Position numbers: made by a program. A stretch of 64,000 nucleotides of DNA from Nitrosopumilus sp. Lineage in GTDB: Archaea; Thermoproteota; Nitrososphaeria; Nitrososphaerales; Nitrosopumilaceae. Each line of letters opens with the position of its first letter. The stretch's first letter is position 1. The stretch is taken from positions 1,131,077 through 1,195,076 of the forward strand of contig CBDBGZ010000009.1 of the NCBI GenBank assembly GCA_965205425.1. Reading direction: 5' to 3'. Positions 1 through 64,000 of the stretch are shown piece after piece.

Positions 1-3000
1 TTGCAACACGACCCTGGCAAGTAATCTAAACAAACCCACTTTTCCTTTTCATTTATTAGATTCTTCTTTACGGTTTCCGTAAGACAGCCAAGTTTTATCT
101 TCTAGAAAACAATAATGAAAATGTGCTAAGTTTCAAGATAACAAAATTAGATATTTTTCAAAGTTATTTTTTTGGAGAAACTGAATTTCGTTCTGACAAA
201 TACAAAGTGAATATACAAAATCAAAGAAGAGGAAAAGTTCTGAAGTTACCTTTTGAGATAAAACCAAAAAGTGAAAAAATTGTTGTGAGAGTATCGGGAG
301 AAGGAGGTTTATTCATGGAAGACTATCTACCTTACAAAGGAGAATCAGAATGGCTTGAAATTGATTCTGATGAAATAACATATTTTCTTGCAGACCATCA
401 AGACCAATGCGATACCATTGAAATTATGTATGAATAAGAGAAAGGACTTTAAGGAATCTGGTCAAAGTCATCACGATGAAATATCCTGGAATGGGGGATC
501 CATACAAGAAAAAGAAAACTATTAGATTTCTCATCATATCTGCAATCATTGCAGTATCAATAGGATTAGGTAGTACCGTCATTCAAAGTCAATTAAATCA
601 AGACAATCCACTCAAAGTCTGTATTGATGATAGAGAAACCCCATACAAAATGAAGGTCAGTTTGGAATTAATCATAGATGGTCTTCCAACAGAAATTCCT
701 GCAAACATTAACGCCGGATTAAATGATGGAGAATGTAAAAGGACCATGTATACTTTGACTGATGATGGAACCATCTATGTTGAATGGGAAGAGGATTATC
801 CATGGGAAATTGGTCACTTTTTGTGGATGTGGGAATTTCCTTTACGAGATATGGATCAGGACAAATCAACATTCTATGTAAATGATAAAGAGTCATCAAA
901 ATTCATCAATACTCCATTACAAGATGGATATCACTACAAGGGAGTATTTACTACAAAGGATTATGATTCATCCAAAGACAAAGACTTCCTACCAGAACTA
1001 GAAAATTAGTATTGTGGACTTTGTAAAAATTTCTAATAATTAGAACTTTATAAAAATGGCATAGTTTTCACTGAAGGATATTAAAAATAATGAAAAGATG
1101 AAAGTTGGTAATTTTACCAGTATTTACCGTTGTCTGGAATAAGACCGATACCTTCTCTTTCAAAGTGTCTGTCTAATTCATCAACCCATCTTTCACGGTT
1201 GTCTTTGTAAGCCCAGCCGTGTACACGTAACCAGAATGAGATAATTCCAAGAAGGAATATTGTGAACATAATGGTTCCGAAGATGTAAATCATTACATCG
1301 TAAAATAATGGATCATAGTTTGGTCCTAGTTGTCCTGTAATTGAAGACAGGATGCTTAGGAAAGTACCTACGATAGGAATCATAATAATTTGGCTCTATT
1401 TGTGCGATATATACATTTCTTTTATTATCATAAAATACGAGATCAGTATTACACTAGAAGAGAGAAATTTTATCTTTAGTATCCACTAAGAATAGATAAT
1501 AAAATAAGAGAAAATTGAGGTTTGTTTATCCTCTTCCCATTGCTGCGTATTTGCCTGATCTTCCTCTAATGAAGAAGGCTCCTGCAATACCACCGAACAC
1601 TGCACCTGCAATAACGGCTGCACCAACTACACCACCTGCATCAAGATATGGAGTTCCTGAACCAGAAGATGGATTTGCTTCAGCTGCTGCGATTCTTCTT
1701 GTTTGAATCTCAAGTATTTCTTCTAATGTGTATGATCCGGTTTGACCTTCGCTACCGATATTACCCATGTATTGTGCGAATGCTACTGCTGAACTTGCAG
1801 ACATTCCGATAGTGAAGACAGCGATTAAGGATGCTGTTAATAGTATTGTTGTATTCATACCGTTTACCTGCTTGTTTTGGGGCCAGAGACTTATTTAACT
1901 TTTATTCTGAACCCCAAATTCGGGTATAATGTACGAGATCAGTATAAGTAACGTTTAATTCTGTTCTATAATGAGCCAAATCATGGGACGAATGCACACA
2001 CACAGACATGGAAAATCACATTCTATTAGACCAGCTACACTTCGTGCACCTTCATGGATTACTCAAAGTCCTGCAGAAATTGAAGAATTAGTAATTAAAT
2101 ACACTAAAGATGGTTTGACCCCTAGTCAAATCGGAATTAAATTAAGAGATCAACATTCAATTCCTCTAATCAAACCAATTACCAAAAAAAGTATGGGACA
2201 GATTCTAGAAGAGAATGATTTGAAAGCAGAGATGCCAGAAGATCTTGAAAACATTGTTAGAAAAGCAGTGGGTCTTCAAAAACACCTCAAAGCAAACAAA
2301 GGAGACAATAGAAATGTCAGATCTTTGGAATTAATTGAAGCCAAAGTTCACAGACTATCAGTCTATTACAAAAGAATTGGAAGAATTTCCAAAACATGGA
2401 AGTATAAATCCGTGGTTGCTCAATTAGAGTAATGACAAATTCACTTGATGAATCACTTTCATTTTTCAAAGATAAAATTTCAGATTGTATAAAATCAAAA
2501 AAATCAATTTCAGTAACAACCCATATTGATTGTGATGGACTCACATCTGGGAGTATAGTCACTAAAGCTCTAATTAGAGCAGGATCTAATTGTACAGTTA
2601 GAACATCAAAAGAATTTAGCAAAAATGTTCTAGAGTCATTCAAAACAGATTCTCGAGACTTTCACATAGTTACAGATTTGGGAGGAGGCTTTGCAAGTGA
2701 ATTAGACAAAACACTTGGAGATAATTGGATAGTTTTAGATCATCATCAAATATCAGATGAAGAAAAAGATAATCAAAATGTCATAAATTCATGGAAATAT
2801 GGAATTGATGGAGGAGCAGATATTTGTGCAGGAGGAATGGCATATCTAGCCTCAGTAGCCTTAGATGAAAGAAATTCAGATTTATCAGCAATTGCAGTTG
2901 TTTCAGCATTAGGAGATAGGCAAGATCAAGGAGAAAGAAAGTCATTTACTGGTAAAAATTTTGAAATTGCCAATATTGCAAAAGAGCAAGGTTTAGTCGA

Positions 3001-63000: not shown

Positions 63001-64000
63001 AAATTCCATGGGGAGTTCTACTGATGAGCAATTAGATGAAATTGGTTTAGATCCAAGGTAACCATATGTGAATAAACAACGAAATTTAGATGGTACTGCT
63101 GATTCTATAGTTTCTAAAAGATACACCTCCAAGAAAAAACCAAAGAAAATCATTAGGACTAGAAAGACAAAACCCATGACCTATGTCGGAATTGATTTGC
63201 ACAAAGAATTCTTACAGGTCGAAACAATGGATGATAAAGGACATACATTATTCAATGAAAAAATTACAAACACCAGAGGGGATATCAAAAAAGCATTTTC
63301 TGCAATCCCAAAAAACTCAAAATGTGTAATGGAATCATCATCTGTCTGGTATGGCGTGTTTAGGTTTCTGCGAGACGAACTAGGATTTGATGTAATACTA
63401 TCAAACCCATATCACACAAAAGCAATTGCAGCATCAAAGAAAAAAACTGACAAGATTGATGCTCACATCTTGGCAGATTTGCTAAGAGGAGGATACATCT
63501 CATCTTGTCATGTACCAGAAAAAGATACCGTGCAAACAAGACAACTGGTGAGATATAGAACCAAACTAGTCCGCAACAGGACAAGGATGAAAAATTTGAT
63601 TCACAGTATAACCTTACAAAATGCAATCAAGATACCAGGAACTGCATTTTCTGATTCATATGTGCACAAACTGTTGGGATTAGATGACTATCGAATAGAT
63701 GGATATCTCAAGATGATAATATCAATCAATGATAGAATCGCAGAGTCAGACATGAGAATCAAGGATGCTCTAAAACATGATTCTAACGCACAACTCTTAG
63801 AATCAATACCTGGTGTTGGAAGATTTACTGCATTAACCATATCCTCTGAAATTGACAATATCGAAAGATTTTCAGATTCTCACAAACTGTGTTCATATGC
63901 AGGAATTGTACCATCGGTGAGAAACTCAGCTGACACCATACGCCATGGGTCCATAACAAGAAGAGGAAGTAGCATGTTACGCTGGGTTCTGGTGGAGGCA

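What a model noticed while it worked through the whole genome (the two positions that open the first line are those of the whole stretch)
1..64000. Insertion-sequence bloom: ~300 IS copies (15% of the genome) in an ammonia-oxidising Nitrosopumilus
This 2.2 Mb Nitrosopumilus genome holds about 311 IS loci of at least 14 families (425 of 2835 genes; 15% of the bases are repeats of 5 or more copies), many families with 99.5-100% identical copies, while amoCXAB and all but one family-level core Pfam are still there. Boldest reading: an archaeal ammonia oxidiser caught in the early IS-bloom stage of host restriction known from young bacterial endosymbionts, with transposition going on now. If true it is the first archaeal model for that stage and the most IS-dense Nitrososphaeria genome on record.
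Evidence so far: Self-BLAST and clustering: copies x unit, median identity: rve 32 x 1042 bp 99.7%; IS630 two-ORF 29 x 1150 bp 92.4%; IS5-like 28 x 1320 bp 97.7%; IS1595 24 x 911 bp 94.6%; IS5 21 x 971 bp 99.5%; DDE_Tnp_1 18 x 1150 bp; 17 x 1027 bp 99.9%; rve 16 x 1029 bp; IS630 15 x 1087 and 13 x 1097 bp; IS110 9; Tn903-like IS5 8 x 1011 bp 100%; IS66 7 + 5. On all large contigs. A scan with Swiss-Prot hits found no housekeeping gene cut by an IS. One family missing against 452 Nitrosopumilaceae (missing.tsv, call 3); amo genes at C9:1128487-1131105. Sponge Thaumarchaeota so far: 0-56 transposase Pfam domains a genome (PMC7848895, passages read, call 70). The finding spans contig positions 1 to 1195076; this window holds only 1131077 to 1195076 of it. 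[...]
(Added by a program. Inside this text positions count along the whole contig: contig position 1,131,077 is position 1 of the stretch shown here. "Call 12" and the like, gene names such as g00115 and contig names such as C1 are that model's own, and its searches are not shown. The text may have been shortened before it was handed on; [...] marks where a part breaks off. The agent that wrote the report below was given it as the finding of a first reader that could run no searches.)

Follow-up and report, generated by a model that had tools for sequence, protein, structure and literature searches.

The report
Insertion-sequence-rich Nitrosopumilus genome, not unique
This marine ammonia-oxidising archaeon really carries about 300 jumping-gene copies that still move, shuffle the chromosome and break a few genes, but many sister species carry similar loads and a 2026 survey already lists such a genome as the archaeal record holder.

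Summary
15.5% of the 2,195,935 bases lie in repeats of 5 or more copies. The repeats are true insertion sequences of about 14 families, with inverted ends, variable target-site duplications and copy sets that are 99.4-100% identical. The window holds about ten IS loci and four damaged genes.

Transposition is recent and is reshaping the genome. There are 72 synteny blocks against the nearest IS-free relative G183. 41 of 1212 orthologues are broken, against 11 of 1185 in the reverse test. Amino-acid change is 1.145-fold faster, and the nonsynonymous/synonymous ratio is 0.161 against 0.138.

Other results argue against an early stage. IS families span 82-100% identity. A co-assembled lineage about 10% diverged is equally IS-rich, with its own insertion sites. 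At least 19 other species genomes of the genus, scattered among IS-free ones, carry tens to hundreds of transposase genes, and two exceed this genome. One IS is 100% identical in a species whose core is 88% identical.

PMC13343696 already reports a Nitrosopumilus with 14.95% IS, the maximum among 17,237 archaeal genomes. Host association could not be read.

The parts
13810..15121 (+). IS110-family element (DEDD transposase ORF 13826-14914)
   Evidence: 95.2% identical over 1315 bp to the family unit. Pfam DEDD_Tnp_IS110 and Transposase_20. Part of repeat block 13803-16096.
15122..16096 (-). rve (integrase-core) IS of a second subfamily; the open frame 14979-16352 runs beyond the repeat
   Evidence: Pfam rve, rve_3 and HTH_23 (protein 1). 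Only 67% identical to the 1042-bp rve unit. G177 holds 95-97% identical pieces of it. Boundaries are approximate.
18280..20675 (+). IS66-family element (about 80% identical to IS66_B) split by a nested IS630_A copy at 18943-20031 (minus strand)
   Evidence: The IS66_B unit matches 18280-18945 and 20029-20675. The IS630_A unit matches 18943-20031 at 98.4%. Pfam DDE_3 on ORF 18957-19955 and DDE_Tnp_IS66 on 20039-20689.
27248..28336 (-). IS630_A copy flanked by TA, lying at the break of a histidine kinase gene
   Evidence: 97.5% identical to the unit over 1092 bp. Pfam DDE_3 with helix-turn-helix domains. TA on both sides.
26877..27263 (-). Remnant of a histidine kinase: only the C-terminal HATPase_c part (129 aa) is left
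   Evidence: Orthologues 74-77% identical sit in open frames of 593-612 aa in G183, G162 and G207. Only residues 473-599 of the G183 ORF are matched. The upstream neighbours in G183 now lie on C7 near 12076, and about 2 kb is missing.
30191..31100 (+). IS1595-family element with its transposase frame split in two (30234-30563 and 30777-31085)
   Evidence: The unit matches at 95.7% and 87.6%. Pfam Zn_ribbon_IS1595 and DDE_Tnp_IS1595 fall on separate ORFs.
32796..33890 (+). IS630_B copy (ORF 33163-33864, 234 aa, lacks the N-terminal part)
   Evidence: 95.4% identical over 1095 bp to the unit. Pfam DDE_3 and HTH_33.
29922..34191 (-). A 248-aa gene of G183 split into two pieces (33889-34191 and 29922-30191) by the block that holds IS1595, an unnamed ORF and IS630_B
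   Evidence: tblastn: residues 1-101 and 154-248 match 3.7 kb apart (row G183_224578_225324).
13465..13731 (+). Truncated gene: only residues 1-89 of a 197-aa G183 ORF, ending next to the IS110 copy
   Evidence: row G183_1329251_1329844.
37710..38262 (+). Frameshifted gene with no IS: a 185-aa G183 ORF matched in two reading frames
   Evidence: row G183_227914_228471; frame 1, then frame 2.
61565..62536 (-). DDE_Tnp_1 IS of the 971-bp family, with a 17-bp inverted repeat and a 9-bp target duplication, ATTGAACCG
   Evidence: 99.5% identical to the unit; the flanks are shown. Family figures: the 9-bp duplication in 12 of 21 copies and pairwise median identity 99.4%. Two copies in G177 are listed at 100% identity.
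62698..62912 (-). Remnant related to the 1320-bp DDE_Tnp_1 family
   Evidence: 68.6% identical over 223 bp. In a low-copy repeat.
63068..64000 (+). Second IS110-family transposase gene, running off the end of the window
   Evidence: Pfam DEDD_Tnp_IS110 and Transposase_20. 67% identical to the other IS110 unit.
16492..18274 (.). Cargo-like genes between the IS: Fic/DOC (16492-17370, +) and DUF5131 (17669-18274, -)
   Evidence: Pfam. They lie inside the IS-dense island 13.8-20.7 kb.

Best explanation
The genome belongs to a large-genome Nitrosopumilus lineage that has lived with a high and constantly renewed load of insertion sequences for a long time.

Shown:
- About 300 IS loci of about 14 families.
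- Several families have transposed so recently that their copies are identical and still carry target duplications.
- IS land in one another.
- Recombination between copies has rearranged the chromosome.
- A few dozen non-core genes have been cut or truncated, while ammonia oxidation and the informational genes stay intact.

Inferred:
- The load is kept up by successive waves. These are fed in part by horizontal exchange of IS with other Nitrosopumilus species in the same gene pool.
- The load is tolerated under slightly weakened purifying selection.
- It is one instance of a state that recurs in many species of the genus with genomes of 1.9-2.8 Mb, not a unique snapshot of a fresh transition.

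Whether that state goes with life on or in a host is open.
For: Real and active IS:
- Inverted ends of 17-24 bp and variable target duplications: 15 bp in 17 of 31 rve copies, 9 bp in 12 of 21, 8 bp in 5 of 5, 5 of 6 and 5 of 6, and 5 bp in 8 of 26.
- Pairwise identity is 100% for two families and 99.4-99.7% for two more.
- After in-silico excision, 24 of 58 duplication-flanked copies restore a frame of at least 100 aa, against 1468 of 2000 random unique sites. Of these 24, 11 lie in other repeats and 13 in unique genes.

Rearrangement:
- 72 collinear blocks against G183. 84 of 144 block ends lie within 600 bp of a repeat or a contig end, against 34.4% of random positions.
- Swapped flanks between rve copies.
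- The window's histidine kinase is truncated and its former neighbours are now on C7.

Modest erosion:
- 41 of 1212 orthologues broken against 11 of 1185 in the reverse test; 16 of the 41 lie next to repeats.
- Lineage-specific amino-acid changes 3057 against 2671, p 3e-7.
- N/S 0.161 against 0.138, Fisher p 6e-4.

Long-standing and recurrent:
- Family medians run from 87.7% to 100%.
- The second lineage on C4 has 26.3% of its bases in repeats of 5 or more copies. 7 of its 9 IS-bearing gaps are specific to one lineage.
- 19 of the 98 other same-genus genomes have at least 20 DDE_Tnp_1 candidates.
- G000 ranks 6th (DDE_Tnp_1), 3rd (rve) and 4th (DDE_3).
- IS-rich genomes lie at 69-89% core identity, interleaved with IS-free ones at 88-90%.
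- 400-kb samples self-compared, share of bases in 5 or more copies: G291 8.9%, G368 11.1%, three C9 samples of G000 2.7-6.9%, G183 0.1%.

Horizontal exchange:
- Two G177 copies of the 971-bp IS are listed at 100% identity over 967-974 bp, while the G177 core is 88% identical.
Against: - Copy numbers in other genomes rest mainly on the tool's 'candidates of the first look'. The tool itself says these are not copy numbers. I checked them only against my own ORF counts in G000 (123 against 127, 65 against 53, 83 against 79) and against two 400-kb samples.
- The direction of the rearrangements is assumed, because no outgroup was used for synteny.
- The pseudogene and rate tests use crude ORF calls, one reference genome and 317 orthologue triplets from 400 kb of one outgroup.
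- Older IS families could also have arrived already diverged by transfer. Divergence within a family therefore overstates how long it has been resident.
- The second lineage could be a co-resident species that blew up in parallel for the same recent ecological reason.
- Most IS-rich relatives are closed long-read assemblies, so fragmented assemblies cannot show how common the state is.
Confidence: 0.72

Rival explanations
1. The archaeon has recently become confined to a host. Its shrunken population lets IS multiply, as in young bacterial endosymbionts, and genome decay is about to follow.
For: - The IS load and near-identical copies.
- Rearrangements at IS.
- A 3.7-fold excess of broken orthologues.
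- Slightly faster protein change and a higher N/S, and lower GC3, 0.193 against 0.210.
- The runs that hold at least half of the sampled words carry coded labels of named organisms (A and B; studies P1 and P2, one of which may be the source) and not the generic metagenome labels.
- Sponge-associated Thaumarchaeota are reported to be enriched in transposases: 0-56 Pfam domains against 0-3 (PMC7848895, passages read).
Against: - The effects are small: 3.4% broken genes, a 1.145-fold rate and an N/S odds ratio of 1.16.
- IS families are of many ages.
- A lineage 10% diverged is equally IS-rich, with its own insertion sites.
- About 20 other species across the genus show the same state.
- An IS identical to one in another species shows an open gene pool, not isolation.
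- Insertions are still depleted in genes, 41% against 73%, so selection is working.
- No host was identified.
Confidence: 0.2
2. The IS-rich, larger genome marks a free-living surface-attached or sediment ecotype. It lives in dense mixed communities with frequent gene exchange and small local populations, and no host is involved.
For: - The state recurs across the genus and goes with genome size: 0-1 DDE_Tnp_1 candidates in the 16 genomes of at most 9 contigs and at most 1.8 Mb that one search lists without a match, against tens to hundreds in genomes of 1.9-2.8 Mb.
- IS are exchanged between species.
- Benthic Nitrosopumilus clusters are reported to be less streamlined than planktonic ones (PMC12753310, passages read; that paper does not mention transposons).
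Against: - The best holders of the sequence carry coded labels of named organisms, not sediment or seawater labels.
- No habitat data could be read for any IS-rich relative.
Confidence: 0.3
3. The repeat load is inflated or created by assembly and binning: mixed strains, duplicated contigs or collapsed repeats.
For: - CheckM contamination is 5.23.
- About 100 kb of C4 is a second lineage.
- A 10.5-kb segment occurs three times, mostly at or near contig ends.
Against: - IS copies sit in unique flanks with variable target duplications.
- They occur on 8 of 9 contigs, and C9 alone has 11.3% of its bases in 5 or more copies.
- The second lineage adds only about 98.7 kb.
- IS-free closed relatives show that long-read assembly does not create the repeats.
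Confidence: 0.03

Closest known systems
Nitrosopumilus sp963422575 (GCA_963422575.1), as listed in PMC13343696, BMC Genomics 2026 (passages and Tables S2, S3 read)
   Same: Same genus. Its IS content of 14.95% is the highest among 17,237 archaeal genomes, practically the figure found here (15.5% of bases in repeats of 5 or more copies).
   Different: The paper gives one sentence and one table row. It has no anatomy, ages, target duplications, gene damage, comparison within the genus or lifestyle reading.
IS-rich Saccharolobus solfataricus / Sulfolobaceae lineage (9.7-10.8% IS in Table S3 of PMC13343696)
   Same: A free-living archaeon with hundreds of active IS of many families and IS-driven rearrangements. 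It shows that a high IS load need not mean host restriction.
   Different: A different phylum-level lineage and habitat, other dominant families (ISH3 and IS200/IS605 according to the paper), and genomes of about 3 Mb (size recalled).
IS expansion in recently host-restricted bacteria (Moran and Plague 2004; Plague et al. 2008). Seen only as references in PMC13343696; content recalled.
   Same: Hundreds of near-identical IS copies, rearrangements at IS, and some gene inactivation.
   Different: Here the pseudogene excess and the relaxation of selection are small. The IS families are of many ages. The state is shared by many species. IS are exchanged across species. No host was shown.
Transposase enrichment in sponge-associated Thaumarchaeota (PMC7848895, Haber et al. 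2021, passages read)
   Same: Nitrosopumilaceae with more transposase genes than planktonic relatives (0-56 against 0-3 Pfam domains per genome).
   Different: The load here is about an order of magnitude higher: about 370 ORFs in transposase clusters. Those were fragmented short-read genomes that under-count repeats.
Luminous symbionts of deep-sea anglerfishes (PMC6020299; listing and start of the abstract only)
   Same: Extracellular symbionts described as undergoing ongoing transposon-mediated genome change.
   Different: They are bacteria, their title reports genome reduction, and their host is known. None of these is shown here.

Membership tests
IS bloom of early host restriction (Moran-Plague model) | Hundreds of IS copies, many near-identical | tested here: met
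   300 repeat segments; 15.5% of bases in 5 or more copies; four families at 99.4-100% pairwise identity.
IS bloom of early host restriction (Moran-Plague model) | Chromosome rearrangements at IS | tested here: met
   72 blocks against G183. 84 of 144 block ends lie near repeats or contig ends, against 34.4% of random positions. Swapped flanks between copies. Which lineage rearranged was not polarised.
IS bloom of early host restriction (Moran-Plague model) | Large-scale pseudogene formation (a tenth or more of the genes, as I recall for Sodalis or Serratia symbiotica) | tested here: not met
   41 of 1212 orthologues (3.4%) split or truncated, against 11 of 1185 (0.9%) in the reverse test. The excess is real but small.
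IS bloom of early host restriction (Moran-Plague model) | Clearly relaxed purifying selection and faster protein evolution | tested here: inconclusive
   A 1.145-fold excess of lineage-specific amino-acid changes (p 3e-7). N/S 0.161 against 0.138 (p 6e-4). Significant but slight, and based on 317 orthologues.
IS bloom of early host restriction (Moran-Plague model) | Recent onset: one young burst on the terminal branch | tested here: not met
   Family medians 87.7-100%. A second lineage 90.2% identical is equally IS-rich with its own sites. At least 19 other IS-rich species lie at 69-89% core identity.
IS bloom of early host restriction (Moran-Plague model) | Confinement to a host and isolation from other gene pools | not testable with these tools
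The IS shared at 100% identity with G177 argues against isolation.
IS66 family | DDE_Tnp_IS66 transposase, terminal inverted repeats and an 8-bp target duplication (definition recalled from ISfinder) | tested here: met
   Pfam PF03050. A 24-bp perfect inverted repeat and 8-bp duplications in 5 of 5 copies (IS66_B) and 5 of 6 (IS66_A). The accessory tnpA and tnpB genes of canonical IS66 were not looked for.
IS630 / Tc1-mariner superfamily | DDE_3 transposase and insertion at TA with TA duplication (recalled) | tested here: met
   Pfam PF13358. Constant TA or TATA at both ends in 14 of 14 copies (IS630_A) and 10 of 12 (IS630_B).
IS481-like (rve, single ORF) | rve integrase-core transposase, about 1 kb, ends starting with TGT, target duplications of up to 15 bp (recalled) | tested here: inconclusive
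   Pfam rve and rve_3. 1042 bp, imperfect inverted ends, one starting TGT, and a 15-bp duplication in 17 of 31 copies. No comparison with ISfinder entries was possible.
IS4/IS5 (DDE_Tnp_1) | DDE_Tnp_1 transposase, inverted repeats and short target duplications | tested here: met
   PF01609 on five clusters. 17-bp inverted repeats with 9-bp and 5-bp duplications; the Tn903-like family has 8 bp or more.
IS110 | DEDD transposase, usually without inverted repeats or target duplications (recalled) | tested here: met
   PF01548 and PF02371. No inverted repeat and no variable duplication longer than 2 bp.

The most novel reading that the evidence does not exclude
The genus Nitrosopumilus holds a recurrent, polyphyletic 'large-genome, IS-laden' state, seen in about 20 or more species of 1.9-2.8 Mb next to IS-free 1.2-1.8 Mb relatives. 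In this reading the state marks a shift to life with named host organisms. IS are traded between co-resident species, and selection is measurably but only slightly relaxed. That would be an archaeal counterpart of facultative or horizontally transmitted symbionts, not of endosymbionts. This genome would be one of its densest cases.
Probability: 0.3. Interest if true: 0.7.

Novelty: new member of a known kind. Interest (0 to 1): 0.42.

Why it matters
Marine ammonia-oxidising archaea are usually described as streamlined and poor in mobile elements. A lineage with one seventh of its DNA made of active IS, together with about twenty similar species, shows a second mode of genome evolution in this key nitrifier genus.

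This gives a natural comparative series. IS-free and IS-rich species differ by only 10-12% in their core genes. The series can be used to ask whether archaea follow the bacterial path of IS bloom, rearrangement and decay when their ecology changes.

The headline figure is already in print, and the host-restriction reading is not established, so the value lies in the comparative pattern, not in this single genome.

Tried and rejected
- Clustering. Single-linkage clustering of repeat segments merged 252 of 300 segments into one cluster, because IS lie side by side or nested. Seeding from megablast HSP boundaries gave truncated units. Both were replaced by ORF clusters and depth-defined units. 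My IS1595 unit was badly bounded (3 full copies, 93 partial HSPs), so I give no copy number for that family.\n- Constant 'duplications' (CA, TTA, GGCC, TATA) are conserved ends or target preference. No read-level test of insertion polymorphism was therefore made.\n- look-up of sequencing runs: no RNA holder is listed. Peripla_BP_6 (the binding protein of a branched-chain amino-acid transporter) is present in G000, G177, G274 and G291 and was not found in G183. It also occurs in small IS-free genomes, where high-scoring versions may be urea transporters (my guess), so it does not discriminate. The rhamnose epimerase PF00908 was not found in G000, G183, G177 or G274 and was found in G291, so it does not discriminate either.\n- Papers that held nothing on IS in Nitrosopumilus: PMC11410982, PMC12613371 and PMC12753310.\n- Searches that found no description of an IS bloom in ammonia-oxidising archaea beyond PMC13343696 and PMC7848895.\n- Earlier notes of this scan: nothing on IS.\n- The 9-kb core query left 31 genomes unscored. 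It was repeated with 4.2 kb on those handles.

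
Full report
WHAT WAS CHECKED. The window is C9:1131077-1195076 of a 9-contig, 2,195,935-base assembly with G+C 32-34%. 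The finding concerns the whole genome, so I worked on the genome and anchored the anatomy in the window.

A self-megablast shows 27.1% of bases with at least one other copy. 18.3% lie in 3 or more copies, 15.5% in 5 or more, 12.8% in 10 or more and 9.0% in 20 or more. Repeats occur on 8 of 9 contigs. There are 300 segments of at least 300 bp with 3 or more copies, 385,069 bp in all. 642 of 2,950 six-frame ORFs of at least 90 aa lie mostly within these repeats and form 67 clusters. 16 of the 22 cluster representatives scanned carry transposase domains: rve, DDE_Tnp_1, DDE_3/IS630, IS1595, IS110, IS66, DDE_Tnp_4 and IS240. Three have no Pfam family. The others are a ParB_N protein, a C5 methylase and a GHKL ATPase.

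The rve unit is 1042 bp, with 31 full copies and a pairwise median of 99.7%. A 1320-bp DDE_Tnp_1 has 26 copies at 97.6%. The two-ORF IS630 (1147 bp) has 26 copies at 92.3%. A 976-bp DDE_Tnp_1 has 21 copies at 99.4%. IS630_A has 14 copies at 97.5%, a 1153-bp DDE_Tnp_1 has 13 at 87.7% and IS630_B has 12 at 94.7%. A Tn903-like IS has 6 copies at 100% and IS66_B has 5 at 100%. AmoA is intact 2 kb upstream of the window.

THEY ARE TRUE, MOBILE IS. Ends and flanks show the hallmarks. IS66_B has a 24-bp perfect inverted repeat and different 8-bp duplications in 5 of 5 copies. IS66_A and the Tn903-like IS each have them in 5 of 6. The 971-bp DDE_Tnp_1 has a 17-bp inverted repeat and 9-bp duplications in 12 of 21 copies. 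The 1320-bp family has a 17-bp repeat and 5-bp duplications in 8 of 26. The rve family has 15-bp duplications in 17 of 31. The IS630 copies sit between TA. Two rve copies carry each other's flanks, the signature of recombination between copies, and others form chains of exchanged flanks.

Overall, 58 of 106 full copies of seven families have a target duplication. After in-silico excision, 24 of these 58 (41%) restore an open frame of at least 100 aa across the site, against 1468 of 2000 (73.4%) random unique positions. Insertions therefore do hit genes but are still filtered by selection. Of the 24, 11 lie in other repeats (IS in IS) and 13 in unique sequence. The latter include:
- a metallo-beta-lactamase/RMMBL (beta-CASP-type) gene hit by two different IS;
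- a large helicase with an MZB domain, hit by a 100%-identical IS66_B copy;
- an HYR-domain protein;
- an integrase-like gene;
- a TrmB-type regulator.
One case, the glyoxalase, is an upstream insertion that leaves the domain whole.

THE WINDOW. It holds housekeeping genes: ribosomal proteins, the seryl- and histidyl-tRNA synthetases, TBP, RFC, GINS, MCM, a Hel308-like helicase, succinate dehydrogenase and argininosuccinate lyase. It also holds about ten IS loci:
- IS110 at 13810-15121;
- an rve element of a second subfamily up to about 16096;
- an IS66-family element at 18280-20675, split by a nested IS630_A at 18943-20031;
- IS630_A at 27248-28336;
- IS1595 at 30191-31100, with a split frame;
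- IS630_B at 32796-33890;
- the 971-bp DDE_Tnp_1 at 61565-62536, with the 9-bp duplication ATTGAACCG;
- a remnant at 62698-62912;
- a second IS110-type gene from 63068 to the end of the window.

Four genes in the window are damaged. A 197-aa ORF is cut next to IS110. A 248-aa ORF is split by the block holding IS1595 and IS630_B. A 185-aa ORF is frameshifted with no IS nearby. A histidine kinase has only its last 129 residues left beside IS630_A. Its orthologues in G183, G162 and G207 sit in frames of 593-612 aa. In G183 its upstream neighbours match contig C7 of G000, and about 2 kb is missing.

COMPARISON WITH THE NEAREST IS-FREE RELATIVE. G183 is closed, 1,563,356 bases and 89-90% identical in a core stretch. 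It has 0.27% of its bases in 5 or more copies. 78.7% of it aligns to G000 at 86% identity.
- The alignment breaks into 72 collinear blocks. 84 of 144 block ends lie within 600 bp of a repeat of 3 or more copies or a contig end, against 34.4% of random positions.
- Of G183 ORFs with a hit of at least 70% identity, 41 of 1212 (3.4%) are split or truncated in G000, 16 of them beside repeats. In the reverse direction the figure is 11 of 1185 (0.9%).
- With 400 kb of G132 as outgroup I obtained 317 orthologue triplets (mean identities 82.8, 83.2 and 91.5%). The G000 branch has 3057 unique amino-acid changes against 2671 (ratio 1.145, p 3e-7). Its nonsynonymous/synonymous count is 1223/7608 against 1112/8051 (0.161 against 0.138, p 6e-4).
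The signs expected from a smaller effective population are therefore present but slight.

NOT A YOUNG, SINGLE BURST. Families range from 82% (5th percentile) to 100% identity. C4:214980-313681 is a second lineage, 90.2% identical over 65.6 kb of low-copy anchors. It too has 26.3% of its bases in repeats of 5 or more copies. Most of its IS are 90-97% identical to copies elsewhere. 7 of the 9 IS-bearing gaps between collinear anchors are present in only one of the two lineages. Both lineages have thus kept gaining or losing IS since they split.

NOT UNIQUE. I used the tool's first-look candidates as a proxy for copy number. In G000 they give 123, 65 and 83, against my ORF counts of 127, 53 and 79.
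- 19 of the 98 other same-genus genomes have at least 20 DDE_Tnp_1 candidates. Five exceed G000: G291 270, G368 197, G322 146, G385 141 and G372 138.
- For rve, G000 (65) is third of 151, after G452 (109) and G372 (81).
- For DDE_3, G000 (83) is fourth, after G368 (115), G385 and G274 (89 each).
- The three families summed give G368 372, G291 335, G372 298 and G000 271.
- The 16 genomes of at most 9 contigs and at most 1.8 Mb that one search lists without a match have 0-1 DDE_Tnp_1 candidates.
- Direct measurement on 400-kb samples, each compared with itself, gives the share of bases in 5 or more copies. It is 8.9% in G291, 11.1% in G368, 2.7-6.9% in three samples of G000 C9, 0.1% in G183 and 0.6% in G132.
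- The IS-rich genomes are 69-89% identical to G000 in the core stretch. They are interleaved with IS-free ones: G183 at 90%, G207 and G162 at 88%.
- Other genera of the family also hold IS-rich genomes.

EXCHANGE BETWEEN SPECIES. The 971-bp IS of the window has two copies in G177 listed at 100% identity over 967-974 bp. The G177 core is 88% identical. Other species hold only 76-84% relatives of this IS. The window's rve element has 95-97% pieces in G177. This indicates recent horizontal spread within a shared gene pool.

LITERATURE.
- PMC13343696 (passages and Tables S2 and S3 read) gives 14.95% IS in Nitrosopumilus sp963422575. That is the maximum among 17,237 archaeal genomes, ahead of a Methanoregula (12.82%) and Saccharolobus solfataricus (up to 10.81%). 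A second Nitrosopumilus is listed at 6.41%. The paper does not discuss the case further. I did not test whether G000 is that assembly.
- PMC7848895 (passages read) reports 0-56 transposase Pfam domains in sponge-associated Thaumarchaeota, against 0-3 in free-living ones.
- Six full-text searches found no description of an IS bloom with host restriction in ammonia-oxidising archaea.

HABITAT. Four runs from two studies hold at least half of the sampled words of a 9-kb core stretch. They carry coded labels of named organisms (A and B), and one may be the source. Host association remains open.

VERDICT. This is a true, active, multi-age IS expansion in a genus where such expansions recur. The 'early host-restriction' reading is possible but weakly supported. 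The claims of uniqueness and priority fail. Six unpublished genomes enter only the tallies, and no named comparison rests on them.

Noticed in passing
G000 C8:5322-15898, C8:204784-215360 and C9:1-11639 (outside the window): A segment of about 10.5 kb occurs three times at 99.9% identity or more, two of the copies at or near contig ends. ORFs in 3-copy clusters inside it include a 750-aa GHKL ATPase and a C5 cytosine methylase, and an IS240-type transposase gene lies nearby. It may be a multi-copy composite element or defence island.
   Followed up: partly
window 16492-18274: A Fic/DOC-domain gene and a DUF5131 gene sit between the IS of the 13.8-20.7 kb island. They look like cargo of a decayed mobile element.
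   Followed up: no
G000 C9:447718-451649: One metallo-beta-lactamase/RMMBL (beta-CASP RNase-type) gene is interrupted by two different IS: rve at 448232-449273 and DDE_Tnp_1 at 449494-450812. I did not check whether an intact paralogue covers the function.
   Followed up: partly
G000 C9:795811-800421: A gene of more than 1000 aa for a helicase with an MrfA-type zinc-binding (MZB) domain is split by a 100%-identical IS66_B copy with an 8-bp duplication.
   Followed up: partly
G000, rve family of 1042 bp (for example C8:30086-31127): Target duplications are unusually long: 15 bp in 16 copies and 16 bp in one.
   Followed up: partly
G177:C1:957826-958799 and 1496624-1497597: Two copies of the window's 971-bp IS are listed at 100% identity in a species whose core is 88% identical. 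This points to very recent transfer between species.
   Followed up: yes
G347, G391, G451, G368, G110 (relatives): Giant open frames of 900-1600 aa carry tandem Peripla_BP_6 (solute-binding) domains, up to four in a row, in IS-rich relatives.
   Followed up: no
G000, repeat clusters 18, 28, 29 and 32 (for example C4:48961-49767, C9:60531-62375): Multi-copy families without a transposase domain: a ParB_N-domain ORF family (10 ORFs, about 83% identical) and three families with no Pfam match, one of 1.8 kb in 3 copies.
   Followed up: no
317 orthologues, G000 against G183 and G132: G+C at third codon positions is lower in G000 (0.193) than in G183 (0.210) and G132 (0.218).
   Followed up: no
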